Shown: one piece after another, positions 1,211 through 56,284 of the stretch
Numbering within the stretch: position 1 is the first letter of the stretch
Layout: each line of letters opens with the position of its first letter
Assembly: GCF_964194155.1 (NCBI RefSeq)
Contig: NC_135881.1
Span: 187,426,001 to 187,490,000 of the forward strand
From: Cetorhinus maximus
Lineage: Eukaryota
Reading direction: 5' to 3'
DNA length: 64,000 nucleotides
The notes under the pieces: generated by a model
Told to the model about the DNA's origin: nothing
Seen by the model: the letters and a program-made list of their open reading frames with translations, nothing else
Databases searched by the model: none
Translations under genes and position numbers: made by a program

Positions 1211-1922
1211 GGAGAGTAGACTGATGGGCGGTAATTGGCCGGGTTGGATTTGTCCTGCTTTGTGTGTACAGGACATACCTAGACAATTTTCCACATAGCC
1301 GGATAGATGCCAGTGTTGTAGCTGTACTGGAACAGCTTGGCTAGGGGCATGGCAAGTTCTGGAGTATAAGTCTTCAGTACTATTGCCGGAATATTGTCAA
1401 GGCCCATAGCCTTTGCAGTATCCAGTGCCTTCAGCCATTTCTTGATATCACATGGAGTGAAAAGAATTGGCTGAAGACTGGCATCTGTGATGCTGGGGGT
1501 CTCCAGAGGAGGCCAAGATGAATCATCCACTCGGCACTTCTGGCTGAAGATTGTAGCAAATGCTTCAGCCTCATCTTTTACACTTATGCTGGGCTCCTCC
1601 ATCATTGAGGATGGGGATATATTTGTGGAGCCTCCTCCTCCAGTGAGTTGTTTTATTGTCCACCACCATTCATGACTTGATGTGGCAGGGTTGCAGAGTT
1701 TAGACCTGATCCGTTGGTTGTGGGATCACTTAGTTCTGTCTACCACTTGCTGCTTATGCTGTTTCGCACACAAGCAGTCCTGTGTTGACACCTTATTTTT
1801 AGCTATGCCTGGTGCTGCTCCTGGCATGCCCTCCTGCATTCTTCACTGAACCAGGGTTGATCCCCTGGCTTGAGGGTAATGGCAAATCGGGGGATATGCT
1901 GGGCCATGAGGTTACAGATTGT

Positions 1923-2140
1923 AGCATAATACTGCGGATGCTGGAAATCTGGAACAAAAACAAAAATACCCGGAAAAATTCAGCAGGTCTGACTGCATCT
2001 GTGGAGAGGAATACAGTTGACGTTTCGAGTCCGAATGACTTCTGATGGAGAGTCATTCGGACTCGAAACGTCAACTGTATTCCTCTCCGCAGATACTGTC
2101 AGACCTGCTGAGTTTTTCCAGGTATTTTTGTTTTTGTTTC
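1923..2140. mobile_element. Short Penelope-derived element, inverted pair of hammerhead-bearing terminal repeats
   Basis: About 90-bp inverted arms. TSD aggttacagattgt (1909-1922) / aggttatagattgt (2141-2154). Confidence 0.85.
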
Positions 2141-5070
2141 AGGTTATAGATTGTGTTTGAGTACAATTCTGCTGCTGATGGCCCACAGCCCTCATAGATG
2201 CCCAGTCTTGAGTTGCTAGATCTGTTCAAAATATATCCCATTTAGCACAGTGGTAGTGCCACACAACACGATGGAGGGTATGCTCAATGTGAAGGCGGAA
2301 TGAGGATAAGGTCAAGTATGTTTTTCCCTCTTGTTGGTTCCCTCAACTCGTGCCGCAGACCCAGTCTTGCAGCTATGTCATTTAGGACTCGGCCAGCTCG
2401 GTCAGTAGTGGTGCTACCGAGCCACTCTTGGTGATGGACATTGAAGTCCCCTACCCAGGGTACATTCTGCACCCTTGTCACCCTCAGTGCTTCCTCCAAG
2501 TGGTGTTCAACATGTAGGAATACTGATTCATCAGCTGAGGGAAGGTGGTACATGGTAATTAGCAGGAGGTTTCCTTGTCCATGTTTGACCTGACGCCATG
2601 AGACTTCATGGGGTCCAGAGTCAATGTTGAGGACTCCTAGGGCAACTCCCTCCCGACTGTATACCACTGTGCCGCCACCTCTGCTGGGCCTGTCCTTCCG
2701 GTGGGACAGGACATACCCAGGGATGGTGATGGTGGTGTCTGGGACATGATCTGTAAGGTACTATTCTGTAAGTAAGACTATGTCAGGCAGTTGCTTGACT
2801 AGTCTGTGAGATAGCTCTCCCACTAGTCCCCAGATGTAAGGAGGACTTTGCAGGATCGACAGGGCTGGAACATGAGAATTTCTTGATGAACAAAGACCAA
2901 GGTCAGTTGCCTAATCTTGGCAAACAATCTCCATCAATTAGTCTACAACAGACCCAGTCATGATAAGCGGAAAATTACAATAGAGAGAGCTTTGGGAATC
3001 ATAAGTCCAAGGTCATCTGTTCCTCCCAAGCATGCTGCAGTTACCGAACATCATGTCACAAATTCAGATACAAGATATTGCTTTCTGAAAAAAAAAATCC
3101 ATTTTATTTGCACTTGAATGAATCAATCAATATGAACTGCTTCCATCTTGGGGGAATCCTATTGCACAGATTGACCACTTACTCACTGAAACATGGGCTA
3201 GCCTTTCTCGGAGGCCAGCAGCCGGGGAGGGGGCAAACCCCCTTTGCTGGGACCCGGGGCACCATTTTATAGGATGCTGCCCAAGCTGCTGTTGAATTAA
3301 AGTTGATCGCTCACCCTCAGGAGCTACCATCCAAATTGGAGGGCTGGCAGCTCAGCAGCATCATCGGGAATGGTAGCCACCACTGGGGTGACACCTACAG
3401 GACAAGGGCACATGGATGGACATGTGCCTTCAAAGTAAGGTAAGTGGAATATTGGGGGTGCCGGACAGGCCCTAGTGAAGTGGGAAGGGGGTTGCTGAAG
3501 ATAGGTGGCGCCAATAGCGCGGGTTTGGCCGTTGCTGCTGGGGTGCCCCTTCCTGGCCCAAATAGTGCCCAAAAAAAGGAGACCCCCCACTCGCTGGAGC
3601 CCACTGGGAAGGCAGCAGGTATCACCGGTCCACATGTGGTGAAGGTAACCCCCCCCCCCCACCCCTCTACCCCACTGCTGTTAAAATTCCAGAAGAGGTG
3701 GGAAGAGGCTCTTAACTGGCCACTTACATGGCTCAACTGGGCTCTGGGACAGATGATTTTGGTCTCTGCCCCCCTTTCCCCCCTGGCAAAATCATACAGC
3801 TCCATAAGGCACAGGCGCTCCAACCGATGCCTTCCCACGCCATTTTGCCAGCCTTCCCATTTTGGCTATTGTTTCCGCAGTGTAGTTTTGAATTTGCTGC
3901 ACTTCAGGCAACAGCCATGTTATCTGGTGCTACTGTTATGGAAAGGGTGAGATAGCTTGTCAGGGTCGACATGCGAGGTGTGGAGAAGTCACATTACAAA
4001 AGCAGACTGAAGAGGCATTTGGCCTGTGATTCACCTAGAAGTTTTGGATTCTGACACCTGACTTAAGATGTGAAAGGTTTTCCATTTCTCAGCAGGCTTC
4101 CATATGATGAATCTGCTGAAACCCCACCTGTCAAAAAAAAAGCCTTGTGGTAATTTAATGGAAACTTAATTGAATTAAGATAATGATCAGCCATGATTGA
4201 ATTGAATGGTGGAATAGGCTTGAGGGGTTGAATGGCCTTCTCCTATACCTCTGATTCTTCCTCCTGTTCCTTTCCCTTGGGGGGTTAGAAAAAACATTCT
4301 AATCTAAAACATTTAAGTCAGATTTTATAAGAGTGAATAACCACAAAATGAATGAACCTTCAATAAACACGAAAGGATAATCATCTCTAGCTCGATTCTT
4401 GTAGATAATCCATGTTGGAAAAGTTGGAAAAGATCGCTTAACTATCTGAGCATGAGAACAAATCCATTGTATCCTGCCTTATCTGAATAAGATTCTGTCT
4501 GTCATAGAATTATATGAACTGATTTAGCACAGAGGCTGCCATTCGGCTGATCATGCCTCAGCTGGATTTGAATAAGCTATCCAATTAATTCCATGCTCCC
4601 TGCTCTTTCCCCATAACCCTGTAATGTTTTTTCCTTCTGAGGCATTTATCCAATTTCCTTTTGAAAGTTTTTATTGAATCTGCTTCTATCACCCTTTCAG
4701 GCAGTGCATTCCAGATCATAACACCTCTCATCTCCCCCTCTGACTGTTTTGCCAATTGCCTTAAATCTGTCCTCTCTGGATACTGGCTCATCTAGAAAAC
4801 TGCTATTGAACACTTTCCTTGAAAGACATTTTACTGGACTGAAGAACAAAAGAAATAAATATACATCAAATAGAAAACGGATTAAATTCAATAATCTAGA
4901 TGGTTTGATAATTCTTTTCAAGGAAATGTTTTAAAATATTTTCCCAGTTGAAGTGTGAATCATTTGTTACTAATAGTCGTTGGCAGTGGGCAGTATTAAT
5001 TGATCTAGAAATTACCTAACCATTTATTTACAACTCAGTTTTGAAAGTATTTATTTCTTTCTGTCGACAG

Positions 5071-5181
5071 ATAGGCAACAGTTCTCGATCTCTGCCCGTT
5101 ATGGTCTATTTTCACCACGGTTCCCTCCAGTCAGGGGCGGCTGGGGCACATGACATGAAGAATCTTGCAGCATATGGACAG
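5071..5181 (+). CDS. Cholinesterase-like (neuroligin-like) membrane protein, first exon visible in the window; upstream exons not found in the window
   Basis: ag|ATA...CAG|gt, 111 nt, phase 0/0. Translates IGNSSRSLPVMVYFHHGSLQSGAAGAHDMKNLAAYGQ, matching the type-B carboxylesterase LPVMVWIHGG segment. Confidence 0.9.
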
Positions 5182-6143
5182 GTAAAAAGGGAATGCAGAT
5201 AATGTCCATCATTTCTTGAAGGCATGGTAGAGGGGCATGAGCTGAAAATTTGCAAATCAACAGGCTCAGGGAAATAGCTATTTCCTTGGACCAGTCTAGT
5301 GTGGAAATATTTCACCAATTTTAGTATTGTAGTTGCTTTTTTCTGTCATTTCATACTGCACATTATTCATGCCACATTATTAATGTTTACTATCATCATT
5401 GGAAGAATTTTCAGTCTAATTAACAGTCTGACAGGGTGGTGTTATCATTATTCTTGTATCTTCACACATTTCTCATGGAGAATAACGTGAATTAGTATAA
5501 ATATTTATGGACTGATTAACAGGCCACATTGCTCCTTCGATGACCATAACTGCCTTTATTTTATAACCTCCAGCAATAGGGTGGTAAGTGCTATCACATA
5601 CATTGGGGTGGGTGGGTGGGGGGGAGGGGGAAGAAGGTGGTGGGTAAGTTTATGGCCTCTCACAACCCGTACAATTGGTGGGACAACGGGCACATCCACT
5701 GGACACAAGTATTCCTCTGGATGCCAACACTGAATTCAGAGCCGCAGCTTTGGTCTCCACTCGGAGACTGTCCGGAGTGGCACTGGAAAGCTGCACATTC
5801 TGACTCAGAAGGAGGAACGCTACCACTGAGCTAAAGACCCCATTCTGTCTAAAGACTCACTTCATTCGGTCTAGGTGGTTGTCCATTTGAGAAATCTGTG
5901 AGCAGCTCTCCCTACAATGAAGTATCGTTATTGTAAAACAAAGAAAAACATACTCGAAGTTTTCTTTTTGTTGGAGCGAGAGACAGCATAGTTGAGATTC
6001 AGTCAACTAAATAAAACATATTAAATGTTAACGGAAAATTAAGTAAAAAGCAATTCATATGAAATGCATTCTATATAAAGATGTCATGGGAGGCTGGTGC
6101 TGGAATTATATAGCAAAGTATTAAAATACTTCAATTTAGTCAC

Positions 6144-6288
6144 AAAAATAAAAGCAAAATACTGCAGGTGCTGGAGATCAGAGTTTTTCTCTGAAGAAGA
6201 GTCACATTGGAATAAAACGTTAACTCTGTTTCTCTCTCCACAGATGCTGCCAGACCTATGAGTTTTTCTAGCGCTTTTTGTTTTTTAT
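6144..6288 (+). mobile_element. Short Penelope-derived element (degenerate hammerhead)
   Basis: CTGAAGA agagtc...AAACGTTAAC plus the family tail. TSD ttcaatttagtcac (6130-6143) / ttcaatttattcac (6289-6302). Confidence 0.8.
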
Positions 6289-6412
6289 TTCAATTTATTC
6301 ACTTCCCTCTTATTTAAGCGCCATGGGACATTTGGGGTGTTAGTAAATGCCTGTTGCTTGTGGGTTTGAGCAGAATGTGGTGTGCTATGATATAATTAAT
6401 TGGACTTTGCAG

Positions 6413-7068
6413 GTCGTAGTGGTGGAATTCAACTACCGTCTTGGGCTTCTTGGCTTTCTCAGCACTCTGGATGTAAACGCTCCCGGCAACCTTGGTTTCT
6501 TGGACATGATCAAAGGCCTTCAGTGGATAAAACACAACATCCAGAACTTTGGGGGAGATCCCAGCTCCATCACAGTGTTTGGCCATGGGGCTGGAGGGTT
6601 AGCAGTGGGTTATCTTCTGTTGTCGCCCCTAACCAAAGGCCTCTTCCACAGAGCCATTTCCAGTAGCGGCAATGCTTTGGTACCTGATTTCATCACAAAG
6701 CCTGGCAACTATTACTCTGACCCTCTTGTTGCTAGCCGAGAACTGGCCAAAGCACTAGACTGTCCAACTGATAATAATGTAAAGATGGTGGAATGTCTCC
6801 GAACAAAACCAGTGGAATCTCTTCTCAATGCCCCAGTGCCCAAGCCAAAATATGGGCCAAAGTTCCTTCCTGTTGTCGATGGTGTTTTCTTACAGGAGCT
6901 GCCTCAGGAGTCGCTTTTCAAAGGAAACTATATGAAAGTTCCTTACATTATAGGACTTACCAACGATGAGGCAGGGGATCAGCTTGTTGATCTTTTGGGT
7001 AATGGTGATGGAATTACCACAGAGACTTATCATAAGTTGGTGCTGGACTATGCCTACAGTCATTTCCG
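6413..7068 (+). CDS. Cholinesterase-like protein, large central exon with the nucleophile elbow (GHGAG)
   Basis: ttgcag|GTC...CG|gtatgt, 656 nt, phase 0/2. Contains NYRLGLLGFLS, GNLGFLD, FGGDPSSITVFGHGAGG, GLFHRAISSSG, the Cys loop CPTDNNVKMVECLR, PVVDG and GLTNDEAG. Confidence 0.95.
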
Positions 7069-9030
7069 GTATGTATAAGTTTTGTCTTTTTTTTGTTATT
7101 TTTCCACTCTGATTTTTTTTGCACTTACATTCTTGCTGAGGGACAGGTGAATTTGGACCTATGGGCCTCAAAGCTCTTCACCGCTAATTGCTATGATTAG
7201 TGAACAAACCCATTATTGTTGATCACACAACTACCAGGATGGTAGAAGGCAAACCAGATGGACCATTAACAATTGCTATATGAAGAATTGCCTATGTTTC
7301 TTGAAGGTGGTACAGAACACCCATGGAGTTCCTCTCAACACCCTTCCACAGGTCTCCTATAAAACCCTTTCAGTAAATTGTTTTATTCTGCTTCTGGTTT
7401 TGAAGATTCCAAATGCAGTGCAGTTTCCATGCAAAGTGAAAGTCTGTCTGGTCGCTAGATGCTACAGTTCCACAAGAGCCAAGCTATCTTCTCAAACTAC
7501 GTTCAAGTGATTATATTTCATGCGGGACCCGAAGATAGTCTATACTGCAGGAAGTTTGAGTGGGGCTGGTGAGAAAGAGAGATGGTAAAGTAAGAAAGGG
7601 AATCACAGCCAAGTTTGATTCTGTCTGAACTCAATGTGCCCACGTATGACGCTACCAGCAGGGATGGGAATCAGGATAAGAAAACTTGTCTGATTTTTGT
7701 GTCTCTGCCTAACCCCTGACATTAAAACTAATGTTATTGCCTTTTCTGTGGCCCTGATTGAAATCAGCAAACTCGGGGATCAATTCTGTGACCTTCAGGG
7801 CTCAGGTCTACACCTTGGAATTGGAGCGTTTTTTTTTTTAAACGGACTGTAGCAATAACATCCGAAAGTGCAATATTCCATGTGTGTGTATTTGAATTGT
7901 TGATCCGCATTATGCTCGCTATGTGTCAATTGACATTTACTTAATCAATTAAAAGGCAGGAACTTACTCAAGTGTTCTTCCAATCAACTTTTCCTTAGTT
8001 TATGCCGAATCGATAGAGGTCAAGGAGGAGAGCCTCCTCCACTCTCTGCCCTCAAGAAAATTCCTAGTGAGAATCTTCAGATGTAATCAAGTAGTCATGG
8101 TACAGATTGTACTAACCAATTGAAAAGCACAAATTTCCATGCTATATCTCAGAATATTTCAAAAAGTCCTGATCAACTTCCAAACTTCCTCAGCTGTCTA
8201 GAGTAGTGAAAGTGAAAGGCACACTACCAAAAGGTTCTGGGCACACTTGAGGACTATCAATACAAGTCGATTGCAAGCCATTGATTCCTGAATTCGTTGA
8301 ATTTCTGCTGCCTCTAACCAAAGATCAGCAGAATCAAGTTCCTATTGTTGATAGACACCACTCATCTCCCGGATTAAATGATTTATTATTTGTTTTAACT
8401 AAATCCCCTACTTTCCTCCCCTTCGATCATGACTTCCATTTTCTAATGTTAGATTTTTAAATGTTATTTACAGTACTTAATTATCTTTATTACCTCCTCC
8501 TTTGTTACCATGAAGATTCTGTAACACCCCTCCAGGCTTCTTTCAAAAAATAACATTTTGCGATATAGTTTGAGTAATTTGAGACATGACATGGTAAGTG
8601 CAGCATGCTAGGGAGGAACAGGTGAATTATGAGCCCCAAAGCTCTCCATTACTGAGGTTTTTTTCAAGTCATGTCTAGGTCTGTTGTAGTTTAATCGACA
8701 AAGACTAATCGCTATGATCAATGAACAAACCCATTTTTGTTGATCACGTGAATACCGGGATGGTAGTAAGCAAACTAGATGGACCATTAGCAATTGCTAA
8801 ATGAAGAGCAGCCTATGTTTCTTTAAGGTGGTAAAGAACACCCATGGCGTCCTAACAACACCCATCCACTGATCTCCTATAAAATCCTTTCACAGACCCA
8901 AAGGTGGATCTCAAATTGTTATATTCTGCTTCTAGTTTTGAAGATTTCAAATGCATCCATGCAAAGTGAAAGTCTCTCTGGTCACCAAGTAAGTAAAATA
9001 CAAAATAACTTCCAATGTTATTTCCTACAG

Positions 9031-9216: not shown

Positions 9217-9289
9217 GTAAAGTACCTCTAAAGTTGTAGAATTGACTTGATCAATTCCATATATTAGTAGGGTTTTTTTGCCTGATATT

Positions 9290-9636: not shown

Positions 9637-10901
9637 CTAGCTGAGACTCCAGTGAGATGAGTCAGCCACTGTTGGGTCGGGAACCAATTTTAACTAATTA
9701 CCTAACTGACTACCCTACAGATGCCTCTAAGCAGGGGCTTTGTTTGTTTATCACTGATACAAACTGAAAGTAAGCATAATTTACCGTTATGGTTAAGTTA
9801 AATGCTAAACGCAAACTTGACTTGATAATAGAAAGAGATTAACTCTTAAAACTCCCTTACTTACCAAATTCCCAGATTTAAGTACAGCGTTCAGGCTCAA
9901 GCTGCCACCTTTATGCAACTTACTTTTCATATTTTTGTCTGTCTCTCCCTCTCACACTCCTATTGCTGTTTATCCTGTACTTTCTTGTCTTGAGTTGAGG
10001 CTGAAGTTGATACAAAAACTGGGACTGAAGATGCCTCAGAGAATGCAATCTGGAAATTCCTATAGAATGCACGCACAGCATTCATTTTATCTATCCAATC
10101 CATCACCTTTTCAAAAGAACTCATTAAGTTTATCAGATTAACATACCTTTACCAAATCTATGCCTGTAATTAACTCATGTATTTCAAAATGCTCAGTATC
10201 TCAAATCATGGATTCTCAGACAACTTGTTGTACTCATTGGTGTATCTTTCTGTTAAAAGATGGCAGAGAAGTCACAATAGTAATCTTGAGCCTAATGAAT
10301 CTTTGCAAAACTTTCAGTATTCTCCCCAGAAGTTTTGAGACCGTAAGAGGGTTAAATGGACAGCATAGGGTTACAAAAAAAAGTTAGTTCACTATTCATG
10401 AGAGTCATGTGCAGCTCTAGTTCAGTTTGATTGGACAGACATTTGATAAACTAGAGAGAGTGATTTATCTGTTGTTGTGATGAGAATTGGACTGAAGTTA
10501 TTTACTTTCAAATCTTTATTCTTTAATGATGTAAAATACTCACTCAAGGAGTTCGCTGCAGATTTCCAAAATTGACTTTTCAGTTCTTAGACTATCATGG
10601 CTCCTCTGTTAATGAAGGCCACTGCTAAGGGCCAATCAGCTGTTTACTTTTGGGTTGGGATTATGACTCCAATAAAAAAAGGCTTAAAATTAATATCCAG
10701 GGACTTCTGGCTTAGTTCAATTTTATTTTGAAGTAGGCTTTGAAGGAAAAAAAACACATGCTGCAACTAGCCAAAGCCCCAGTCATTATTTTTTTTAAAA
10801 ATCAGTCCCATCCCATGGGTTATTAGAATCAGTTGAAGTGATTATAACTAACATTTTGTTGCATTTTGATTATATTTTTTAAAGATATCTGTATAATTGT
10901 A

Positions 10902-11121
10902 TAATAAAAGCAAAATACTGCAAATGCTGGAAATCTGAAATAAAAACAAAGTGCTGGAAAGACTCAGCAGTTCTGGCAGCATCCACAGTGGGAGAAACAG
11001 AATTAACGTTTGGAGTTCAATATGAGTTCCAAAGAAGAGTCATATTAGACTCAAAATGTTAACTGTTTCTCTCTCCACAGATACTGCCAGACTTGCTAAG
11101 TCTCCAGCACTCTGTTTTTAC
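10902..11121. mobile_element. Short Penelope-derived element, inverted pair, degenerate
   Basis: Inverted family repeats. TSD ctgtataattgta (10889-10901) / ctgtataatggta (11122-11134). Confidence 0.8.
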
Positions 11122-11479
11122 CTGTATAATGGTAATCTTATGTCTTTGTGCTCAAGTAAGGTGCAAGTGAGCCTATTCCCTTTTTCTGGCCACCAAGGGT
11201 TAAACATCACTCTCTGGTCAAGCTCACCAATTAGATGTGGGGTAAAGCTCTGTCAAAAGAAAAAAAAAGCCTCAATCCCAAACTCACAAGAATGTCCTTA
11301 CTGGTGCAGTGAGACAAGTTGCCCAATTTGTCAATAAACTATCCTTTGGCCACATTTAGTCAATTCATATTAGGGGTGGTTCTGTGGCAGTAACAGCGCT
11401 CATTAGGAATTAGGTGGCAATTTTATTTTAATTCTTGTGTATTTAGAAAAAATAAATCAAGTGCTGATTTTCTTTCCAG

Positions 11480-12857: not shown

Positions 12858-13419
12858 ACATATTCTCAAACCAGAATGGAGCACAGTTTCATATCTTCAC
12901 AAGAACCAGCATGATTTCACAGCAAGTTGGCACTGGGTTCTAAATGAGATTTTGTACAGTCAGCCCAAACACATTTGGAACTTGGTTTTTGAAATCATCT
13001 AATTCATTTCACTTTGGCTACTTATTGCTAATGCAGTGAAGAATTTTGCTTATGAAAGTATGAAATTCTAGCCAATGTTAGGGCATGTAGTTTTAGAAAA
13101 GAGCTTCCAGGCTTCCCTTTGGAATATATTGTTGGCACAATCTTGCAGTCAGAGCTAGATCATTGTGCAGTCAGGAAGCACATTCTGCACGTTAAGAACA
13201 GTGACAATCTGGAACTCACTCCCCATAAACGCTATGGATACTGTGTCAATTGGAACTTTTTCAACAGAGATTGATAAACTGTTGGGAGGCAAGTGTATCA
13301 AGGGACAAGGGGCAAAGGCAGATAAATGGAGTGGGAGTGCAGATCAGCCATGACTGACCGAAAGTAGCTTGAGGGTTGAATAGCCTATTCTTGTTCCTAA
13401 TATTTCTTTAATTTTACAG

Positions 13420-19210: not shown

Positions 19211-19618
19211 GATCAATTGGAGCACCCTATGGAGTTGGCTAAGGTGGATAAATTTGTGACCTACTCATCAATAATATTTTTGGTCAGTTATTCCAGTCAA
19301 CCTAATTCAAGTTCAACTAAGGTAATACTCTCAGAAAATGCTGGAAAAACTTTGCAGGTCAGCCTCAGAGGAGAAAGGAACAGAATTAATGTTTCAGGTT
19401 GATGATTTTTTGTGAATTTTGTGATGCTGCCTAATACGCCAAGTATTCCCAGCATTCTGTTCTTCTCTCAGACTTCCAGCATCTGGGTATTTTGCTTTGC
19501 TAATCGTAATAATTAATGGAATTACTCCCTGGCCATCCATCATTCTACAGTCATCTGAACCTAACAATACCAGCCATTGAAGTGAACATACTTACAAATT
19601 GATTGTGAAGGAACCTAC

Positions 19619-20641: not shown

Positions 20642-20782
20642 CTAAAAATCAAAATAGAGGTAATAACTCCACAGACACTTCATCTTGTTCTCTTGCTCGC
20701 CCTTCCGAAAAAGAATTTCATTTAGCAATCTCAGCCCAACTGCTCAAGTTTCGTCCAGCAAACAGAGGAAATGATACCATAC

Positions 20783-25280: not shown

Positions 25281-25316
25281 TGAGAGAGAGAGAGAGAGCG
25301 AGAGAGAGAGAGAGAG
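25281..25316. repeat. (GA)n microsatellite
   Basis: Direct reading of the sequence. Confidence 0.9.
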
Positions 25317-27689: not shown

Positions 27690-27828
27690 GAGCTCTGAAG
27701 AAGGGTCATACAGACTCAAAACATCAACTCTGTCTCTCTCTCCACAGATGCTGTCAGATCTACTGAGTTTTTTTCAGCATTTTGTTTTTATTTCAGATTT
27801 TCAGCATCCACAGTATTTTGCTTTTATC
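27690..27828 (+). mobile_element. Short Penelope-derived element (degenerate hammerhead)
   Basis: CTGAAGA agggtc ataca gactc AAAACATCaact plus the family tail. Confidence 0.75.
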
Positions 27829-31095: not shown

Positions 31096-31394
31096 AAATA
31101 ACACATGAGCAAACCAACTAACAGAAGTTAGATGACCCTTTTAGGTCCCTTTACAGATTCTGAGGGCATGATTTTAACTCTGTGAAAGTGGGAGTGTTTT
31201 GAATAGGTTAAATCAAACCCCTAAGATCTGGGGATTCCAGTTTAAACAATTAAGACCAAGAATATTGGATATCCAAGGTTGACTAGAAGGACTTGCTCTA
31301 GTTTGAAATGTTCCAAATAATACCAAACAGCAAAAGCCAAGATTTAGCAATACAAGCGCATGAAAATGGAAAGCAAACAGGCGGTGCTTATTGC

Positions 31395-32534
31395 CTCTCA
31401 GAACCATGATAGCCTCGTCATCACTTATCACCCCACCAGCCTCCGCATTCAAAGGATCATCCTCCGTCAACTCCAGCATGATACCACCACCAAACACATC
31501 TTCCCTTCACCACCCCCCGTCGTCATTCTGTAGGGACCGTTCCCTCCGAGACACCCTGGTCCACTCCTCCATCACCCCCTACACCTCAACCTCCTCCCAC
31601 GGCACCTTCCCATGCAACTGCAGAAGGTGCAACACCTGCCCCTTTACTTCCCCCCTCCTCACCGTCCAAGGGCCCAAACACTCCTTTTCAAGTGAAGCAG
31701 CACTTCACTTGCACGTCTCTCAATTTAGTCTACTGCATTCGCTGCTCCCAATGCAGTCTCCTCTACATTGGAGACACCAAACACAGAGTGGGTGACCGCT
31801 TTGCAGAACACCTTCGGTCTGTCCGCAAGCATGACCCAGGCCTTCCTGTCGCTTGCCATTTCAACACACCGCCCTGCTCTCATGCCCACATGTCCGTTCT
31901 TGGCCTGCTACAATGTTCCAGTGAAGCTCAGCGCAAACTAGAGGAACAGCACCTCATCTTCCGATTAGGCACTTTACAGCCTTCTGGACTGAATATTGAG
32001 TTCAACAACTTCAGATCATGAACTCTCTCCTCCATCCTCACCCCCTTTTTGATCCCCCTTTTTTCTAATAATTATTCTATATTTTTTTAGATATATATTT
32101 TTCTTTTCCCACCTATTTCTATTATTATTTTTAAAGTGTATTTCCACCCATTGTTTCATCTCCACCTTTTAGCCTATTTTGATCCCTTCCTCCCACCCCA
32201 CCCTCACTAGGGCCATCCGTCACTTGCTCATCCTGCTTTGTACCCTTAATGTCACCATTAGCACATCCTTTAGCTAATATCACTACAGTCAACACCCCTT
32301 TGTCCTTTTGTTTATGACATCTTTGGCAATCTCTCCTTTGCCTCCAACTACCTCTGGCCCTCTATCCAGCTCCACCTGTCCCACCCTCCTTAAACAGCTT
32401 ATATTTCACCACGTTTCTTATTCCTCTTTAGTTCTGATGAAGAGTCATCCAGACTCGAAACGTTAACTCGGTCTTCCTTTTCACAGATGCGGTCAGACCT
32501 GCTGAGTTTTTCCAGCAATTTTTGTTTTTGTTTG
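31395..32534 (+). mobile_element. 5'-truncated Penelope-like retroelement with GIY-YIG endonuclease and terminal hammerhead
   Basis: CNCRRCNTC; FTCTSLNLVYCIRCSQCSLLYIGDTK...RFAEH...HFN...EQHLIFRLGTLQPSGLN. TSD aggcggtgcttattgc (31379-31394) / aggcagtacttattgc (32535-32550). Confidence 0.92.
32430..32468 (+). ncRNA. Minimal type I hammerhead ribozyme motif
   Basis: AGTT-CTGATGA-a-GAGTC atcca GACTC-GAAAC-GTT-AACT: both core boxes intact, stems I and II pair, palindromic ACGT stem III. Confidence 0.75.
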
Positions 32535-32894
32535 AGGCAGTACTTATTGCACATTAGATAGTAAAGTCTTCAGAATCATCCCCTACAATGACCGATAAGT
32601 AATTCCAGGGAGGCAAAATAAAAACAAAAGACAAAAAAGCTTTGAGCAAGTCCTCCCAAATTCTATAAGGCAATGAAGCATGCTCTAGCTCATGGTTCTG
32701 AACATAAGTATTTACTTAACCTCCTCCTCCTGTGTGTTCAAATTTCCTTAGAAGGTGATTGTACATAGGAACAGGAGTAGGCCACTCAATTCCTTGAATC
32801 ACTCCACCATTCAAATCTATTTCTATTCATTGATCCTGTCCCAGATGTCAGCCTTCCAACTGCACTTTATCTCTCAAAGTCTCATATGGTGTCA

Positions 32895-44271: not shown

Positions 44272-45415
44272 CTATGAAAAAGGGAATCAAAAATTATACT
44301 TAGTGAAGAACATAAAGTGCATTATATTTGGAGTATGCTGACAACTTTAGCTCAAGATTTATAGTTCTTTTTCTACAAGAATTCCCATACTTAATAGAAA
44401 ATGCAGTCTATACATTCTTAAGGACAATAAACAGCCAACCCACCGTTACACTGGCTATGATTTTTATAACAAATTATACAAATTAACATTGAATAATGTA
44501 TATGGCCAATGTACACCTGCTAACAAGACCAGTCAACATAACATACACCATTAGATGCTAAAATGGTTTGTAAATTCAGTACTGTACATTATCCAATTGA
44601 AGTAGAGATTTTTAAGGGCATTTTGCTAAATTATTTGTGCAGGTTTATTAATGGTTGCAAAACAATCTCTAACCCAAAGAGCACTAAAGAGGAGCTTGAA
44701 CATATGTTGAAATCCTTATTCCAAGGATACAAAGAAAGAAATGTTCTAATTTTGTTGGTGATGCAACTATTTTATTTGTCCTAGGAATGTGGGCAGAACC
44801 CGCAGCCATAAACTGAAACACTATTGCTAAGTTACAGAACCATAAAGCACAGGAAGACTATTTTACCCACTGTGCCTTCGCTGGAGCTTTCTCATTTGTC
44901 TCACTTCCCTACTTTTTCCCTATAGCCCTGCATTTTTTTTCCTTTTCAAGTAAATATCCAATTACTTATTGAAATAAACTATTGAAACAGCTTCCATTGC
45001 CCTTTGAGGCTGTGCATTCACAATCCTCTAAGAAGCAAGAGCACGAGCACTACCACTGAGTCATGGTTGACATTGAAGATGTTTTAACATCTAATGCAAG
45101 GTAATCAACCTGAAATGCTAACTCCATTTCTCTCTCCACAGATGCAACCAAAGCTGCTAAATGCTTCCAGCATTGGAAATCTGAAATTAAAATAGACAAC
45201 GTAAACTGAAGTTTCCATGTAGATGCAATAGATCCATTACATAACATGGCAACTGCTTCAATATTTAATGGGAATTCGTCAGCCTGGATCCCCTTAACAC
45301 TAACAAAAGAAACTTGCAATCTGCTGGGATTTCCCAGTCAGGTCGTGGGGCAGTGCACCTAGTTAACAAGTTTCGCAATACCGCAGCAGATTGCAATAGG
45401 GTTTTGTGTACAAAC

Positions 45416-45545: not shown

Positions 45546-45748
45546 CTGTAACAGAGAATGAAGAGGATGGTTTAATAGCAGCAAGCACATTTGATGAATC
45601 TGAAAAGTTACAAATCTTGCAGTTTTTGGGTTTTGTATGCACTAGGTAGAAATAACTAGATAAAGCAAATATGTCTTTTGAAAGGTATTAAAGTGGAATG
45701 AAGACAAAATTGATGCTATTTTTTCCCCCAACATCTAGTTACCTTCTA

Positions 45749-45852
45749 CAACAAAAACAGAAAATGCTGGAAAAATTCAGCAGGTCTAGCAGGATCTGTG
45801 GAGAGAGAAACAGAGTTAACGTTTCGAGTCCGTATAACCCTTCTTCATAACC
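45749..45852 (-). mobile_element. 104-bp Penelope-derived hammerhead mini-element
   Basis: Perfect 14-bp TSD ctagttaccttcta (45735-45748 and 45853-45866). Minus strand aTGAAGA agggtt atacg gactc GAAACGTTAAC. Confidence 0.85.
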
Positions 45853-45909
45853 CTAGTTACCTTCTAACCCACATACACAGAGAAGGCCCCTAGAAGATCA
45901 ATATTCTAT

Positions 45910-46520: not shown

Positions 46521-46917
46521 TCTGTACTTATCTTTTGTTTCTTTTCTTGTCTCATTACTACCTCCTTTCAGCTTGCACTATCATTCCTTTTGTCATTTAA
46601 TCTCTCTTGCTCTCCTCCCTATCCTTTTCTCCCAGCCTTTCCTTGCCCCTGTACTTGCTTAAAAGCTATTACATTGCTAAACTTTTCCAGTTCTGATGAA
46701 AGGTTAACTTGAACCATATTAACTGTTTCTCTTTCCACAAAATGGCAATCAAGCAGCAGTACGAGCTTATCTTCCTTATATACTGAGCTGGAAAGTAAAG
46801 AGAAGCACTATTACATTATGTAATACATTCCAGATCACTTGCAAATACAATTTTAGAGAATTATTGCAAAAATTTAAGGCTCGTAACTTTTAACCTTTCC
46901 TTCCTTCTACCTCTTAC

Positions 46918-47083
46918 CTGTCTCTCCTTAAATGCAAGATCCGTGTCTACGATGCACACAGAGTTTACATGCTTTGCCAGAAATTCGTCATCAAATTCCT
47001 CCCAGACATAATCTCCGAAAACCACTCTGTGCCTGCTTAGCAGCTGCAGCACACTCAGCCTCACATCTTCTTGTTTCACAGTA
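46918..47083 (-). CDS. TRIP13: TRIP13 coding exon 2
   Basis: TVKQEDVRLSVLQLLSRHRVVFGDYVWEEFDDEFLAKHVNSVCIVDTDLAFKERQ, 166 nt. Confidence 0.95.
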
Positions 47084-47819
47084 CTATCAAAACAGAACTT
47101 AAACCATGTAAAAACCATCACCTGTATTAATAGTTGTTGCAAGTGTGTAGATTTTCTTGCTGCCTTTTAATTGAACAGCAACGTCATAATAAAAGGTTTC
47201 TGCCTTGTTTCATATATTAATTTATTGCTGGTGGTGCAAATATCTAGTTCTGCGATTCATAGTTCATGTGTTTTAAAATATTACTTTTAGGTTTAGGTAA
47301 AAAGGTTAGATGTAGATAAATGGGCACATCTAGCTAAGAAACTGATAAACAATCCTGGGGTGAATGCAATTCAAAGAAGTTTGGAGATAATTACGCTTTA
47401 AAGGTTCAGTTCATGTTTACTTAAGAAATTAACAGTTAGAAAGGTAGATCATAAAACAGCAGGTGGGCTTACTTAGGTAAAGAACTGGAGACATGACACC
47501 TGCAGCCCTAGTTGTCCAGAGGGATGTTTTTGTTTTGGGAATTAGGGTTAAATTAGCTTAAAAGTATTTGGTAAACTCTGAAGGCTTGCAAAATCCACTT
47601 CTTTCTTCAGATCAAAGAAGCAATTTTAAATGAGGAATACTTAACCTAAAGATCTGTTCAAGGACATCCCAGAGCATGCCATATTGTCATGGAGATGGGT
47701 GGCACTTAGGAAGGTTCTCTGGTTTCAATATATCTGCATGTTTGATGTGTCTTATAAGGAAAAGGCTTGGGGTAAGTCAGCAGTAAAACGGAGTGCATAA
47801 CATGCATAGTTATAACTTA

Positions 47820-50789: not shown

Positions 50790-53225
50790 AATAAAGTGCC
50801 CCATAATAGACTAATGAATAAGGTCAGAGAATGTGGAGTCAAGGGACTCATGGCAGAATGGATTACTAGCTGGCTTCAAGATAGAAAGCAGAGAGTGGGA
50901 GTAAAATACAGTTATTCAGAGTTATAGAGGGTGAGAAGTGGTGTTCCACAAGGATTCGTGCTGGATCCACTGATGTTCCCAATTTCCATTCATGATTTGG
51001 ACTTTGGAATCAAGAACATTTTCTAAATTTGTTGATGACACCAAATTTGGAAAAAAAAAGGGGGGGGGGGGGTGGCGGTGGCAGGGAGTGGAAATAATTA
51101 ATACTGAGGAGAACTGCAACAAATTACAGGGGGACATTAATAAACTTGCAGATTGGGCAAATAATTGGCAAATTAAGTTCAACACACATAACAGAGGTAG
51201 TACATTTTGGTAGGAAGAAGGGAGGTCACTTATTACTTGGAAGGTACAAGTCTAGGTGAGGTAGAGGAACAAAGGGATCTTGGGAGTGTAGATACATCAA
51301 TTCCTAAAAAGTTGCACCACAAGTTAGCAAGGTCATAAAAGAAAGCAAACCAAGCACTAGGCTTTATTTCCAGAGGGATAGAATTGAAAAATAGGGAAGT
51401 CATTCTAAACTTGCATTGAACTTTGGTTAGACTGCACTTAAGAGAACTGCATGCAGCTCTGGTTGCCATAATAGAAAAGGATGTAGTGGACCTGGAGAGA
51501 GTGCGGAGAGCATTTACAAGGATGATACCAGAAATGCATGGATATTCATAGAAGCTAGGAGCAGGAGTAGGCCATTCAGCCCTTCAAGCCTGCTCCACCA
51601 TTCATTATGATCATGGCTGATCATCCAACTCAATAGCCTGCTCCCGCTTTCTCCCCATACCTTTTGATCCCTTTCGCTCCAAGAGCTATATCTAACTCCT
51701 TCTTGAAAGCATACAATGTTTTGGTCTCAATTACTTTCTGTGGTAACGAATTCGACAGGCTCACCACTCTCTGGGTGAAGAAATTTCTCCTCATCTCAGT
51801 CTTAAATGGTCTATCCCGTATCCTCAGACTGTGACCCCTGGTTCTGGACTCCCCCACCATCGGGAACATCCTTCCTGCATCTACCCTGTCTAGTACTGCT
51901 AGAATTTTATAGGTTTCTATGAGATCCCCCCTCATTCTTCTGAACTCCAGCGATTATAATCCTAATCAACTCAATCTCTCCTCGTATGTCAGTCCCACCA
52001 TCCCAGGAATCAGTCAGGTAAACCTTCGCTGTACTCCCTCTATAGCAAGTACATCCTTCCTCAGATAGGGAGACCAAAACTGCACACAATATTCCAGGTG
52101 TGGTCTCACCAAGGCCCTGTACAATTGCAGCAAGACATCCCTGCTCCTGTACTTGAATCCGCTGGCTATGAAGGCCAACATACGATTTGCCTTCTTTACC
52201 GCCTGCTGCACCTTCATGCTTACCTTCAGCAACTGGTGTACAAGGACACCCAGGTCTCCTTGCACATTCCCCTCTCTCAATTTATAGCCATTCAGATAAT
52301 AATCTGCCTTCCTGTTTTTGCTACCAAAATGGATAACCTCACATTTATCCACATTATACTGCATCTGCCATGCATTTGCCCACTCACTCAGCTTGTCCAA
52401 ATCACACTGAAGCATCTCTGCATCCTCCTCACAGCTCACCCTCCCACCCAGCTTTGTGTCGTCTGCAAATTTGGAGATATTACATTTAATTCCCTCATCT
52501 AAATCATTAATATGTATTGTGAATATCTGGGGTCCCAGCACCGATCCCTGCGGTACCCCACTAAGTCACTGCCTGCCATTCGGAAAAAGACCCATTTATT
52601 CCTACTCTTCGTTTCCTGTCTGCCAACCAGTTTTCTATCCATCTCAATACACTACCCCCAATCCCATGTGCTTTAATTTTACATGCCAATCTCTTATGTG
52701 GGACTTTGTCAAAAGCCTTCTGAAAGTCCAAATAAACGACATCCACTGGCTCCCCCTCTTCAACTCTAATTATTACATCCTTGAAAAATTCCAGTAGATT
52801 TGTCATATCAGGAAAGGATTGACAGACGTGGTGTCTCTATCTCCCAAGAAAAATAAATAAAGCTGAGAGGTGGCCCAATAAAATTGAAAGGTTTTGATAG
52901 AGTGAATACAGCGAAACTGTCTCCTCCTGTGGGGAAAAGTATAACTTGAGGCCATCAATATAAGATAATTACCAAGAAATCCAATAGGAACTTAAGAAGA
53001 AATTGCTTTATTCAAAGAGTGGTGAGAACATGGAACTCCTTACCACAGGGCGTTGTTGAAATTAATAATATAGATGCATGTAAGGAGAAGCTAGATAAGC
53101 ATTTAAGCAGGGAAGGGAATAGATGGTTACAATGATAGATTTAGCTGAGTGAAGATGGGAGGAAGCTGGAATGAAGCATAAATACCAGCATCAGCTGAAT
53201 GGCCTGTTTCTGTGCTATATACTCA
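50790..53225. mobile_element. Older plus-strand CR1 interrupted by a younger minus-strand CR1 (about 51548-52805)
   Basis: Inner copy encodes YLDFQKAFDKVPH, SKFADDTKLGG and VRPHLEYCVQFWSP nearly intact; the host resumes after 52805. Confidence 0.9.
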
Positions 53226-53611
53226 ACATAATGCATTGATATTTCTTAATGAGAGATTAAAACCTTGTTTCAAACAATTTAGGAGTTATTTTGGAAATGT
53301 ATTACATGATCAAAGAACGCAATTTGATGTTCTGCTTGAATCATTATATTATTGAGAAGCAATGGGATACAATACACCAATGGTTGAAGTGGGAAGCAAC
53401 CCTACTGTCTTACCAGTAACAAAGATTTAGTGTAATGGTTCATTAAAATATCTTCCAAAAGAATTATAACAGTTTTTGGAGAGCAATTAACACAGGCTTT
53501 TCCATTCCAGCACTGGCAGTATTTTGCTTTTGTGTCCGTTCCAAGTAGGATCAGCACTTATTTTCAAGTAGCTCATAACTCAGTTCCACGGCATGAAACA
53601 AAATGGCTTAC

Positions 53612-53700: not shown

Positions 53701-54056
53701 TTATAGCTACTGAAACAGAATTTAAAACAAATTGAACAATCTATGCCACTGTTGTGCCATTATGACAGAAGCAACTCCTATCTTCATTTTCAGTGGGATT
53801 CAGTCTATCAATGATAGACTATGCATTCAGAAACAAACATTAGGTTACAACCCAACTATACACGTGTAAATAAATGTAGCACCATTTGAGAAGGTTGTAC
53901 ATTTAAATCAAATAAAAAGAATTATGGATGTTCCCTTCACAAATTTCAGTCAGTCAACAAATCCAAACAATGACTGTATCAGGAGGAAGATGAATAACTG
54001 GGGGTGACGTACTTCACAGCCAATGAAGTACACTTGAAATGTCATCACTGTTATAA

Positions 54057-56284
54057 AGGCACAGACCTACACCTTGGAGAGGACACTCCAGCTTTGTGAT
54101 TTACATCAGCACAACACAGGAAGAAACAGTTACCAGTTATAAAGCTTTTATTATTTTGTACCATTGACCCAGAAAGGACCCAGAAGCTCCTCAAAATCCT
54201 CAATTAGGCTCTTTAGGACGACGCCCAAAGCCAGGGTGCAGTGTCAAAGAGGGATCAACTGCGCAACACTATCTAAAGCTCCGCAGTCACTGTGGACAGT
54301 AAAAGAGATCAGAGGAATACTGACTGCTTTGAGGCTTATTAGGCTGATATGGAGCTAGTTACTGCAACAAAAAGGAGAGCCCTCATGAACTACAAGCTAG
54401 TCCCCAGCACACAAAACCTAAATGTTCAGAACTGCCAGAATCAAGTCTCAGATAGCTCAGCACTGCACCGATCAATACTGGTTGAAACTTTGCAACAGCA
54501 TACAAGCTGCTGCTGAATCCAGGGATGCTAGTGGGATGTAAGAAGGAATCAAGAAAGCAACAGGCCTAGCAACAACCGAATCATTCCCCTTGAAGACAAA
54601 GACAGGGTTGATCATCAATGAACCTGGCAAGCAGATGGAAAGATGAGTGGAGCACTCTTTCGAACACTACGCAAGGAAGAACATTGTCACTGAAGAAAAC
54701 TCTCAGTGCCATTCGACTTTCCTGTCATGAAGGAGCTGGACAATGAGCCCGCCATAGTAGAGCTTAACAAGGCCATTGACCATCTTGACAGTGGTCAAAA
54801 GATATTATTCCACCTGAAATCATCAAAAATATAAAACCAGCACTGCTGCAGCATCTCATGAACTTATGTGTCTCTGCTGGAAGGAAAGATTTGTGCCTCT
54901 AGACATGTGTGATGCAAAAATGGTTACCTTGTAGAAAAACAAAGGGGATCGCAATGACAGTAGCAATTACTGAAGTATCTCCTTGTTAATTACTGTGGGG
55001 AAGATTTTTGCTCACATTACACTGACCGGATTGCATTACACATCTACTGAGTGTCAATGTAGCTTCAGAGCTGGGAGCGTGACCATCGATACGACTGTCA
55101 CACTTCGGTAGTTACAGGGGAAATGCTGCGAACAGTGCAGACCACTCTATATTGCCATCATAGACCTCACTGAGGCCTTTAACCTTGTCAGCTGAGACAG
55201 ACTCCTCAAGCTGCTGCAGAAAATAGGCTGCCCACCTGGACTCCTGGCGCTATTTCTTCTTTCCACAAGAACTTGCAGTTTCTTCAGTTACAATGGAGCA
55301 TCATTGGAGGCTTTCCAGATCCAGTAAAACAGGGCTGCATCCTGTCACCAACTCTTTGGTATATTTTTCTCCATGCTGCTATTGTACACTCTTGTCTACC
55401 TGTATGCCAGAGCTGACTGCAAACTGTTCAACAAGGCAAGACTATGCACTTTGATTTGTCCTAGTCTGCGAGTTGCTGTTTGCTGATGATCCCATGTTAG
55501 CATCCCATAATGAAGTTCACTTACAACAGCTTTTAGATCGGTTTTACCTGGTGTGCAAGGAGTTTGGACTGACAATCAGCATCTGGAAGACCAAAGTTAT
55601 GGGCCAGGACATAGAGACGCCACCTTCCATCAAAATTGGCAATCTTACTCTAGAGGTGATCGACAGCGTCACATACTTTGGATCAACAATTACCAGCATT
55701 CTGTCGCTTGACGTTGAAATTAACACTAGGATTGCCAAGGCTGAAGCTGTTATGTTAAAGTTAAGAAGTCGAGCGTGGACCAACAGCAAACTAACCAAAA
55801 ATACAAAGCTCAATGTGTACCAGGCTTGTGTTCTCAACACCCTCCTTTACAGTAGCGAGACACAGACAACTTATGCAAGCCAATGAGTAGCTGAACAGCT
55901 TCCACCTCCGCTACCTCAGATGAACATTGGGCACCTCCTGGCAATGCAGTGTGCTGAGTATGGGTGCACACCAGTGTGCAGGGATCCCCAGCACGTTTGC
56001 CCTCTTGAGTCGGTGGCAACTCCGCTGGCTGGGTCACATGAGCCGAATGGATGACAGCCTCATCCCCAAGGACACATTGGAGCTTGTTCAGTACAGAAGT
56101 AACATACACTTCGGGCGCAGCCCAACATCTTCCGAGATGTTCTGTTTAGTTCTGCTGAAGGGTCATGAGGACTCGAAACGTCAACTCTTTTCTTCTCCGC
56201 CGATGCTGCCAAACCTGCTGAGTTTTTCCAGGTAATTCTGTTTTTGTTTTGGATCTTCCAAGATGGACGGATCCCGAACTAACT
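54057..56284 (+). mobile_element. RTE-clade LINE, 5'-truncated and decayed
   Basis: LLFADD..LASH, FGLTISIWKTKVM, INTRIAKA, VYQACVLNTLLYSSET; aact-type tail. 12-bp TSD tcactgttataa (54045-54056 and 56285-56296). Confidence 0.88.
56140..56252 (+). mobile_element. Penelope-derived hammerhead mini-element nested in the RTE
   Basis: agtt CTGCTGA agggtc atgag gactc GAAACGTC aact. TSD atcttccgagatg (56127-56139) / atcttccaagatg (56253-56265). Confidence 0.82.

What the first reader, a model, noticed from the sequence alone, without database searches (positions are those of the whole stretch)
1909..56265. Dispersed family of 100-220 bp hammerhead-ribozyme mini-retroelements with 13-16 bp TSDs
Seen: the unit agttCTGANGA-aGAGTC(n5)GACTC-GAAACGT(C/T)aact...cacagatgctg.cagacctgctgagtttttccag recurs at about 2040, 6190, 11030, 27695, 32434, 45840 (-) and 56152, with more diverged relatives near 19400, 45110 and 46692. 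Six insertions have readable TSDs of 13-16 bp. The same unit ends the GIY-YIG Penelope element at 31395-32534, the likely mobilising partner. Several solo copies begin within about 12 nt of the ribozyme core. Known: Penelope-like elements carry minimal type I hammerheads thought to cleave as dimers through a palindromic stem III. Inference: a very high-copy (about 1 per 6-7 kb here) non-autonomous, retrozyme-like family, or heavily truncated PLE insertions.
Basis: partly seen in the sequence, partly recalled or inferred. Interest (0 to 1): 0.72.

Follow-up and report, generated by a model that had tools for sequence, protein, structure and literature searches.

The report
Penelope retroelement stubs starting at hammerhead
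These 100-250 bp repeats are pieces of the leader of a Penelope-like jumping gene that still has intact copies in this genome, a known kind of element; many of them start sharply at the first bases of its small hammerhead ribozyme motif and not at the ribozyme's cut site, which suggests they are dead-end copies that likely run off the start of the element's RNA and are likely not a self-propagating family.

Summary
In detail: all listed copies and six 13-16 bp TSDs are present. The unit is the hammerhead-plus-leader of a Penelope-like element (PLE) with intact 917-aa RT/GIY-YIG ORFs in this 4.0 Gb genome. A systematic sample gave 123 arms in 1.2 Mb, about one insertion per 11.5 kb. The motif is the published PLE minimal hammerhead. 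It is not a retrozyme family: no short tandem arrays were seen, and junctions differ between copies. 3' ends fall at two sites (the known 'tail'). 48 of 48 classifiable TSD-supported head-to-head insertions have one arm ending at each site, and the TSD mode is 14 bp. In young subfamilies, 26 of 100 copies start at the hammerhead's first bases, against 1 of 100 at the cut site. A TATA-like box lies 28-31 nt upstream of that point. Likely mechanism: internally primed reverse transcription running off the mRNA's 5' end, often from both nicked strands. The RNA start is inferred; no usable RNA data were found. The lineage with intact ORFs has replaced core base A6 with C (99 of 100). This scan has noted the same pattern in other genomes. 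Verdict: known kind with useful mechanistic detail.

The parts
1909..2154 (.). Head-to-head fold-back insertion: minus arm 1923-2040 ends at site B (with tail), plus arm 2040-2140 ends at site A; TSD 1909-1922/2141-2154; A9 changed to G
6127..6302 (.). Inverted tail-only arm (6149-6181, -) plus forward unit (6190-6290, site A); TSD 14-17 bp; hammerhead stem II and GAAA decayed
10886..11134 (.). Head-to-head fold-back: minus arm 10905-11025 (site B), plus arm 11025-11119 (site A); TSD 13-16 bp; core decayed
19332..19498 (.). Old, diverged fold-back of a related subfamily; no readable TSD
27691..27826 (+). Solo unit starting at stem I and ending at site B (tail); G12 changed to A; no readable TSD
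31379..32550 (+). 5'-truncated PLE (31395-32534): Cys linker, GIY-YIG (frame 31482-32021), 3' UTR with TATA-like box about 30 nt before the unit, intact hammerhead at 32430-32469, 3' end at site A; TSD 31379-31394/32535-32550
32430..32469 (+). Minimal type I hammerhead: 4-bp stem I, CUGAUGA, extra A, 5-bp stem II, GAAA, palindromic loopless stem III, GUU triplet
45108..45192 (+). Old diverged fragment with a short inverted piece; no TSD
45735..45866 (-). Solo unit 45749-45852 starting at stem I and ending at site A; perfect 14-bp TSD; C3 changed to A
46688..46739 (+). Old related copy with an upstream UTR-like stretch; GAAA and stem III decayed
53505..53531 (-). 27-bp fragment matching the tail only
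56127..56265 (+). Young solo unit 56140-56252 starting 12 nt before C3 and ending at site A; A6C core, GUC triplet; 13-bp TSD; lies just after an old RT-like fragment

Best explanation
The short repeats are leader fragments of an endonuclease-bearing Penelope-like retrotransposon, likely made when its reverse transcriptase primes at one of two internal sites 100-150 nt into the element's RNA and runs off the RNA's 5' end, which is inferred to be a transcription start at the first base of hammerhead stem I. SHOWN: the unit is the first ~100-150 nt of the 3291-bp repeat unit, which runs hammerhead, tail, ATG at +189, 917-aa ORF, 3' UTR. 3' ends sit at two sites. 5' ends peak at the stem I edge and avoid the cut site. 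A TATA-like box lies 28-31 nt upstream. Head-to-head insertions have one arm at each site and TSDs of about 14 bp. INFERRED: (1) the TATA-like box and Inr-like YYAGTT start a Pol II transcript at that A; (2) priming at the 5'-proximal sites gives 100-150 nt cDNAs, while priming at the same sites in the downstream repeat of a tandem array gives longer, variably truncated or full-length copies; (3) the enzyme nicks both strands about 14 nt apart and extends each nick, one from site A and one from site B, and the two cDNAs are joined head to head; (4) stubs lack the TATA box and the RNA downstream of the priming sites, so they are dead ends; (5) hammerhead cleavage does not define either end.
For: Continuity of the unit into the ORF and tandem period 3291 bp. 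3' ends in the systematic sample: 54 at site A, 53 at site B, 16 elsewhere, of 123 arms. Head-to-head insertions: 60 of 85 candidates had TSD score >=9; 48 of the 60 had both ends classifiable and all 48 were A+B (binomial p 7e-15 against 0.5); 59 of 60 had exactly one B arm; TSD length 12-16 in 56 of 60, mode 14. Hand counts of breaks in 13-nt segments, first 100 listed matches each: at most 5 upstream of the cut site, 1 exactly at it; 9 across stem II; 29 upstream of TTCTG, 26 of them within 0-4 nt; at most 3 further up in the UTR. Systematic sample: 45 arms start at the hammerhead edge and 26 run on into the UTR (about 42 and 29 after by-eye correction of five rows). TATA-like motif starts at -28 to -31 (87 motif starts; 78 of 98 distinct upstream sequences have one at -32 to -29). 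Copies with TSD or partner arm abutting the stem I edge carry no foreign exon. Published support: internal RT initiation at two sites that explain the tail, extension of both strands, a predicted protein dimer, and ribozyme cleavage dispensable in vitro (PMC11167929); tail often at one end only and inverted 5' copies (PMC3846280; PMC8557442).
Against: No RNA 5'-end data. An untemplated G, expected from a capped template, is not consistently enriched: G:A before AG was 15:10 and 11:8 but 0:4 and 6:13. The same spot is also a pyrimidine tract plus YAG, and in D. virilis an intron ends at the 5' end of helix I (PMC4209133). The D. virilis promoter is internal and TATA-less (PMC2377424 passages), so an internal promoter in the stubs is not excluded. 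31 of 123 sampled arms align only from inside the core or stem II, and 19 from further down (partly decay). The four break counts use overlapping but not identical subfamilies, come mostly from contig C1, and drop broken rows with T at the first place. Whether the two arms come from one RNA or two is unresolved.
Confidence: 0.68

Rival explanations
1. They are PLE by-products as above, but the sharp 5' edge comes from something other than a transcription start: RNA processing at the YAG (splicing or aborted splicing), or RT release or template switching at the edge of a protein-bound or dimerised hammerhead.
For: A pyrimidine tract and YAG precede TTCTG in the UTR-linked copies. An intron abuts helix I in D. 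virilis (PMC4209133). There is no consistent cap-G signal. Stem II also has a raised break rate, 9 of 100.
Against: Most copies keep G, AG, CAG or TCAG, which a splice would remove, and no shared or host exon lies between the TSD or partner arm and the unit. Copies pass through stem I instead of stopping at its 3' edge. TATA spacing is held at 28-31 nt while the intervening bases diverge.
Confidence: 0.2
2. A non-autonomous, retrozyme- or SINE-like family propagates from short masters, using the PLE enzyme and hammerhead processing.
For: Short copies are the majority class. Non-LTR retrozymes derive from pLTRs and include monomers, and were found in the one chondrichthyan sampled (bioRxiv 10.64898/2026.07.22.740005). 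pLTR sequences can act in trans (PMC3846280).
Against: No short head-to-tail arrays in the 1.2 Mb sample: 8 same-strand neighbours within 1.2 kb by coordinates, no run of equal-length units, and the closest pair (L033) has ORF sequence between the units. Ends avoid the cut site. Junctions are unique per copy, and variants track ORF-linked subfamilies. Long insertions follow the same A/B and TSD rule.
Confidence: 0.07
3. Ordinary random 5' truncation of PLE insertions; the apparent clustering reflects a general excess of very short cDNAs and detection bias.
For: PLE insertions are known to be heavily 5'-truncated (PMC8557442). A substantial share of arms do run into the UTR or ORF.
Against: Random truncation predicts a smooth decline. 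Instead breaks are rare downstream (at most 5 of 100 and 9 of 100 per 13 nt), peak at 26 of 100 within 5 positions, and fall to at most 3 of 100 upstream.
Confidence: 0.05

Closest known systems
Canonical EN+ Penelope-like elements (Neptune-type linker): pLTR, inverted 5'-truncated copy, 30-40 bp tail (PMC3846280, PMC8557442)
   Same: Single RT plus C-terminal GIY-YIG ORF, tandem and head-to-head arrays, tail at one end only, TSDs, hammerhead in the pLTR, TATA and Inr-like motifs in the pLTR (noted for Pen2a_Av).
   Different: Both 3' sites lie in the 5' UTR before the first ATG of the long frame; TSDs are tightly 12-16 bp (8-10 bp in the rotifer examples read); stubs that start at the hammerhead edge are the commonest class; about 350,000 insertions by extrapolation.
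PLE minimal hammerheads, min-HHR (Cervera and de la Pena 2014, PMC4209133)
   Same: Type I, short helix I, extra base between 9 and 10.1, G10.1-C11.1, palindromic 15.2-16.2 without a loop, mostly single dispersed motifs attributed to truncated PLEs, some pairs on opposite strands.
   Different: Helix II has 5 bp (7-8 in Schistosoma); position 6 is A, U, C or G by subfamily and is C in the lineage with intact ORFs; counts far exceed the 4,000-9,000 reported for coelacanth and Xenopus, though by a different method.
Poseidon_Ac in vitro mechanism (Frangieh et al. 2024, PMC11167929)
   Same: Two internal RT start sites bounding the tail, close downstream of the hammerhead; both strands cut and extended; no ends at the ribozyme cut site.
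   Different: There the sites lie inside the ORF. In the parts read (1-2 of 4) the paper does not describe run-off stubs or a strict one-A-one-B rule for inverted arms.
Non-LTR retrozymes (PMC7229834; bioRxiv 10.64898/2026.07.22.740005)
   Same: Small, non-coding, type I hammerhead, related to PLE pLTRs, many dispersed monomers.
   Different: Defined by 150-450 bp tandem repeats, canonical hammerheads and circular RNAs; none is shown here and the tandem criterion fails in the sample.
L1 twin priming (recalled, not checked in a paper here)
   Same: Both nicked target strands prime, giving an inverted 5' part within one TSD; the 6149-6290 insertion has exactly this non-overlapping form.
   Different: Most arms here overlap in template coordinates, start at fixed internal sites and meet at the hammerhead.

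Membership tests
EN+ Penelope-like element | Single ORF with RT and C-terminal GIY-YIG | tested here: met
   917-aa ORF in L192: RVT_1 E=8e-07 and GIY-YIG E=4e-04, both just under Pfam's curated cut-offs; many 924-925 aa open frames
EN+ Penelope-like element | pLTRs from (partial) tandem copies; adjoining inverted 5'-truncated copy | tested here: met
   3291-bp tandem period and head-to-head arrays in L191-L210 and L141-L160
EN+ Penelope-like element | Optional 30-40 bp tail, often at one end only | tested here: met
   Two 3' end peaks about 32 nt apart, about 45 nt in the intact-ORF family; exactly one tail in 59 of 60 TSD-supported pairs
EN+ Penelope-like element | RT groups with PLE/telomerase RTs in a tree | not tested
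   No named reference sequences were fetched
EN+ Penelope-like element | Retained spliceosomal intron (some PLEs) | tested here: inconclusive
   No GT..AG joint among the listed contig joints; contigs of guessed RNA runs cannot show absence
Neptune clade | CX2-5CxxC zinc-finger-like linker between RT and EN | tested here: met
   CX4CxxC in P0001, P0002 and window frame 31364-31795; Nematis has such a motif too (PMC8557442), so the clade is not settled
PLE minimal hammerhead | Helices I and II pair, with compensatory changes | tested here: met
   94.1% of 323 cells paired against 91.1% shuffled (0 of 500); 4 pairs with two-sided change, the clearest U-A to C-G in stem II (rows chosen by me and related by descent); A-U/G-C interchange at 10.1-11.1 in the unselected sample
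PLE minimal hammerhead | Extra base between 9 and 10.1; G10.1-C11.1; palindromic loopless stem III | tested here: met
   Extra A in 83 of 86 rows; G-C 46, G-U 12, A-U 17 of 84; the CG of ACGT shows CpG decay, 41 of 104 intact
PLE minimal hammerhead | Full CUGANGA...GAAA core including A6 | tested here: not met
   Other core bases 83-98% conserved, but A6 is A in 48 of 75 sampled rows (labels there are shifted by one column); 99 of 100 listed copies of the intact-ORF lineage have C6, 1 has U6, none has A6
PLE minimal hammerhead | Self-cleavage as a dimer | not testable with these tools
   The catalytic dimer fold scores -12.1 and -11.1 kcal/mol against dimer minima of -19.0 and -19.2; needs an assay
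Non-LTR retrozyme | Short head-to-tail tandem repeats, each with a hammerhead | tested here: not met
   None seen in 120 x 10 kb; the tandems found are full 3.3-kb coding units; rare arrays elsewhere are not excluded
Non-LTR retrozyme | Unit bounded by the cleavage site | tested here: not met
   1 of 100 copies starts at the site; 3' ends lie 65-115 nt downstream of it
Non-LTR retrozyme | Abundant monomeric linear or circular RNA | not testable with these tools
   No listed holder is on record as RNA; contigs only
Non-autonomous SINE/MITE-like family | Copies descend from short masters with shared ends and junctions | tested here: not met
   Fold-back junctions and arm lengths differ among copies; no tree was built

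The most novel reading that the evidence does not exclude
These stubs are a genome-wide fossil record of the PLE reaction itself. The mRNA begins on the hammerhead's first base. A dimeric RT-endonuclease cuts both strands about 14 nt apart and always copies one strand from site A and the other from site B, possibly from two RNAs held together by the palindromic hammerhead. In the lineage with intact ORFs the ribozyme has lost A6 while its stems are kept by compensatory change, so it has become an RNA-pairing or packaging device and no longer mainly a cutter.
Probability: 0.3. Interest if true: 0.68.

Novelty: new member of a known kind. Interest (0 to 1): 0.38.

Why it matters
How PLEs integrate and what their hammerhead does are open questions; the papers read say so (PMC11167929, PMC8557442). 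This family gives three sharp, cheap predictions: an RNA start on the first base of stem I, an obligatory A+B pairing with a 14-nt stagger, and little cleavage by the C6 ribozyme in Mg2+. It also has many intact ORFs suited to an in vitro assay. For genome annotation, such 100-250 bp repeats should be called PLE stubs, not SINEs, MITEs or retrozymes. They are about 1% of the sampled DNA, with tens of thousands of fold-backs that would form double-stranded RNA when transcribed (extrapolated, untested).

Tried and rejected
Rfam scan of the window: no hammerhead match. Cap-G test: mixed across four subfamily lists, not supported. One RNA or two: arms of a pair differ at 178 of 3633 non-CpG positions (4.9%), random arm pairs at 18.2% and TSD pairs at 18 of 731 (2.5%, biased low); 43 of the 178 differences are common alleles, several being alignment noise at site A; inconclusive (52 of the 60 TSD-supported pairs were entered). 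Sequencing runs: no RNA holder listed; contigs of four guessed RNA runs gave no start, end or splice information. TSD search over 600 nt upstream of unpaired arms: 8 of 90 scored 10 or more, against 14 of 446 in the swapped null; too noisy to map ends by itself. First seed regex too tight, 3 seeds, replaced. Column labels and pairs were off by one; pairs were redone. Lunse et al. 2017 is not held, so A6 variants in PLE hammerheads may already be described there. One search fetched an unrelated paper. A look-up of earlier findings by sequence returned nothing. Rejected: the 31395 element as the mobiliser (no RT); a master hairpin element; ends at the ribozyme cut site.
Full report
Observation. 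A profile from 44 natural copies finds 13 arms in the window and 127 in a systematic sample of 120 stretches of 10 kb (123 at E<=0.01), with 0 in the reversed sample. 72 of the 120 stretches hold at least one arm. With 19 head-to-head pairs in the sample, this is about 104 insertions in 1.2 Mb, one per 11.5 kb, or roughly 350,000 in the 4.0 Gb assembly (extrapolation from large contigs only). One exact 35-mer of the young subfamilies occurs 40,498 times, with 0 control matches. Six TSDs of 13-16 bp core length are confirmed with coordinates. Four sites have none. Rfam has no matching hammerhead model.

What the unit is. The GIY-YIG fragment at 31668-32018 has 91,804 first-look candidates in the genome, of which 150 were scored. 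Twenty long-frame loci all show EN, 3' UTR and the unit, often with an inverted truncated copy upstream. An N-terminal query retrieved many open frames of 924-925 aa. In 18 of 30 such loci, by eye, the hammerhead, leader and tail run directly into that frame, and the rest are truncated or inverted nearer the ORF. In L192 the repeat unit is 3291 bp: stem I at +1, cut site after +35, site A near +103, site B near +150, first ATG at +189, then a 917-aa protein with RT, a CX4CxxC linker and GIY-YIG (both Pfam scores just under the curated cut-offs). The repeat is therefore the leader or pLTR end of an EN+ PLE with a Neptune-type linker (motif definition from PMC8557442; no tree was built). The window's own 31395-32534 copy lacks the RT and cannot be the mobiliser. 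The repeat landscape looks like a cartilaginous fish, which is recall and not a test.

The hammerhead. It matches the PLE minimal hammerhead of PMC4209133 (parts 1-2 of 4 read): type I, 4-5 bp helix I, an extra A after A9, G10.1-C11.1 and a loopless ACGU palindrome that can pair only between molecules. On 27 chosen variants, 94.1% of cells pair against 91.1% shuffled, and slid controls reach at most 42%. The rows are related, so this is supportive and not a probability. Position 6 is not conserved: A 48, U 13, C 12, G 2 of 75 sampled rows. The lineage with the compensatory C-G pair in stem II, to which the intact-ORF arrays belong, has 8,918 exact matches, and 99 of the 100 listed have C6 and none has A6. 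A6C is a known natural variant that strongly lowers cleavage in Mg2+ in two other hammerheads (PMC7151607 passages). The base before the cut is U in 85 of 106 rows. The catalytic dimer fold is 7-8 kcal/mol above the predicted minimum. In the window only 32434 and 56152 keep an unbroken core. My query selected the C6 lineage, so intact A6 lineages may also exist.

3' ends. Of 123 sampled arms, 54 end at site A, 53 at site B and 16 elsewhere. This is the known tail, explained in vitro by two internal RT start sites (PMC11167929 parts 1-2 of 4). Over all held loci, 85 head-to-head candidates were found and 60 had a TSD score of 9 or more. 48 of these had both ends classifiable and all were A+B; 11 were B+other and 1 was A+other. 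The 5 A/A and 2 B/B candidates all lacked a TSD and are probably separate insertions. TSD length was 12-16 in 56 of 60, mode 14, and the targets were 67% A+T. At least one TSD call (L009) looks element-derived, and these loci are enriched for young copies by my searches. The rule holds from 140 bp to over 7 kb. A tail at one end only is in print (PMC3846280 and PMC8557442 passages). I did not find the strict pairing quantified in the passages and sections read.

5' ends. Patterns that display 13 free bases upstream were counted by hand on the first 100 listed matches. Breaks number at most 5 across GAAA and stem III, with 1 at the cut site; 9 across stem II; 29 just upstream of TTCTG, 26 of them within 0-4 nt; and at most 3 in the next UTR segment tested. 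The subfamilies overlap but are not identical, and broken rows with T at the first place are dropped in all four. In the unbiased sample, 45 arms start at the hammerhead edge and 26 continue into the UTR (about 42 and 29 after by-eye correction), 31 align from inside the core or stem II, 19 from further down, and 2 lie at a stretch edge. Among 98 distinct UTR-linked upstream sequences, a TATA-like motif starts 28-31 nt before the A of AGTT (87 motif starts; 78 sequences at -32 to -29), and that A sits in an Inr-like YYAGTT (canonical spacing from established knowledge). Some full-length copies also begin within about 20 nt of this point (L163, L171, L179, L186). A cap-derived G is not consistently seen. 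RNA data were unusable.

Mechanism. Because priming is internal and close to the RNA's 5' end, an ordinary mRNA that starts at stem I would yield a 100-150 nt cDNA. Only priming in the downstream repeat of a tandem array would yield long copies. Priming from both nicked strands, one at A and one at B, gives the fold-backs, whose arms meet at the hammerhead edge with short variable junctions. The stubs lack the TATA box and the downstream RNA that the anole enzyme needs, so they are probably dead. The end positions and the A+B rule are shown; the transcription start, the dimeric enzyme and the dead-end status are inferred. The main rival is processing or RT release at the same spot, since it is also a pyrimidine tract plus YAG and the D. 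virilis promoter is TATA-less and internal. Whether one or two RNAs are used is unresolved. L033 holds two direct pieces with different subfamily bases inside one short TSD, a single hint at two templates.

Not a retrozyme. Non-LTR retrozymes are 150-450 bp tandem repeats with canonical hammerheads and circular RNAs (PMC7229834 passages; bioRxiv 10.64898/2026.07.22.740005 parts 1-3 of 5). No such arrays were seen in 1.2 Mb, ends avoid the cut site, and junctions are unique. Rare true retrozyme arrays elsewhere in the genome are not excluded.

Novelty. Dispersed single minimal hammerheads from truncated PLEs, and pairs on opposite strands, were reported in 2014. Eight paper searches (listings only unless cited above) showed no title or abstract start describing this family or the 5' clustering. 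Lunse et al. 2017 is not held, Repbase and Dfam were not available, and no supplementary files were read; any of these may cover the family or the A6 variants. Earlier AI notes of this scan report the same pattern in other genomes, which is not independent support. Verdict: real, a new member of a known kind, with quantitative detail that makes the PLE mechanism and the ribozyme's role testable. Interest 0.38.

Noticed in passing
window 6347-7078 (+) and 13412-13894 (+): Carboxylesterase-family exon (PF00135, E=2.5e-64); the later frame ends in a hydrophobic stretch and may be the last exon of the same membrane-anchored gene.
   Followed up: partly
window 20744-47166 (-): TRIP13-like exons (PF23563 E=3e-13 at 46864-47166; PF23242 weak at 20747-21052); several of the insertions lie between them, so probably in introns.
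   Followed up: partly
window 1279-2760, 17580-18428, 25455-27077, 35049-35920, 51550-52797, 55455-56145, 60050-60905: Repeated old LINE-like fragments, with RT or AP-endonuclease Pfam hits at 2287-2760, 52017-52565 and 55455-55883.
   Followed up: partly
window 39104-40161 (+): Broken frames that look like a hAT-type transposase remnant (recalled resemblance; no Pfam hit).
   Followed up: no
L033:4105-4563: One insertion that starts at the hammerhead core, runs through the tail about 220 nt towards and into the ORF, then jumps to a second unit with different subfamily bases ending at site A, within an 8-bp direct repeat.
   Followed up: partly
L191-L210; G000 C7:136.64-136.65 Mb, C8:28.09-28.10 Mb: Large arrays of near-identical intact elements in tandem and head-to-head order, suggesting recent activity.
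   Followed up: partly
L001, L003, L011, L026: A GC-rich repeat of about 150 bp or more is inserted at or next to the AACGTT palindrome of the unit in several independent copies, suggesting a second element that targets this site.
   Followed up: no
L143, L153, L156, L157: Long open frames of other elements (up to 1042 aa) lie beside PLE copies and were not identified.
   Followed up: no
window 56554-57554: GC-rich stretch resembling a promoter island, upstream of the minus-strand TRIP13-like exons.
   Followed up: no
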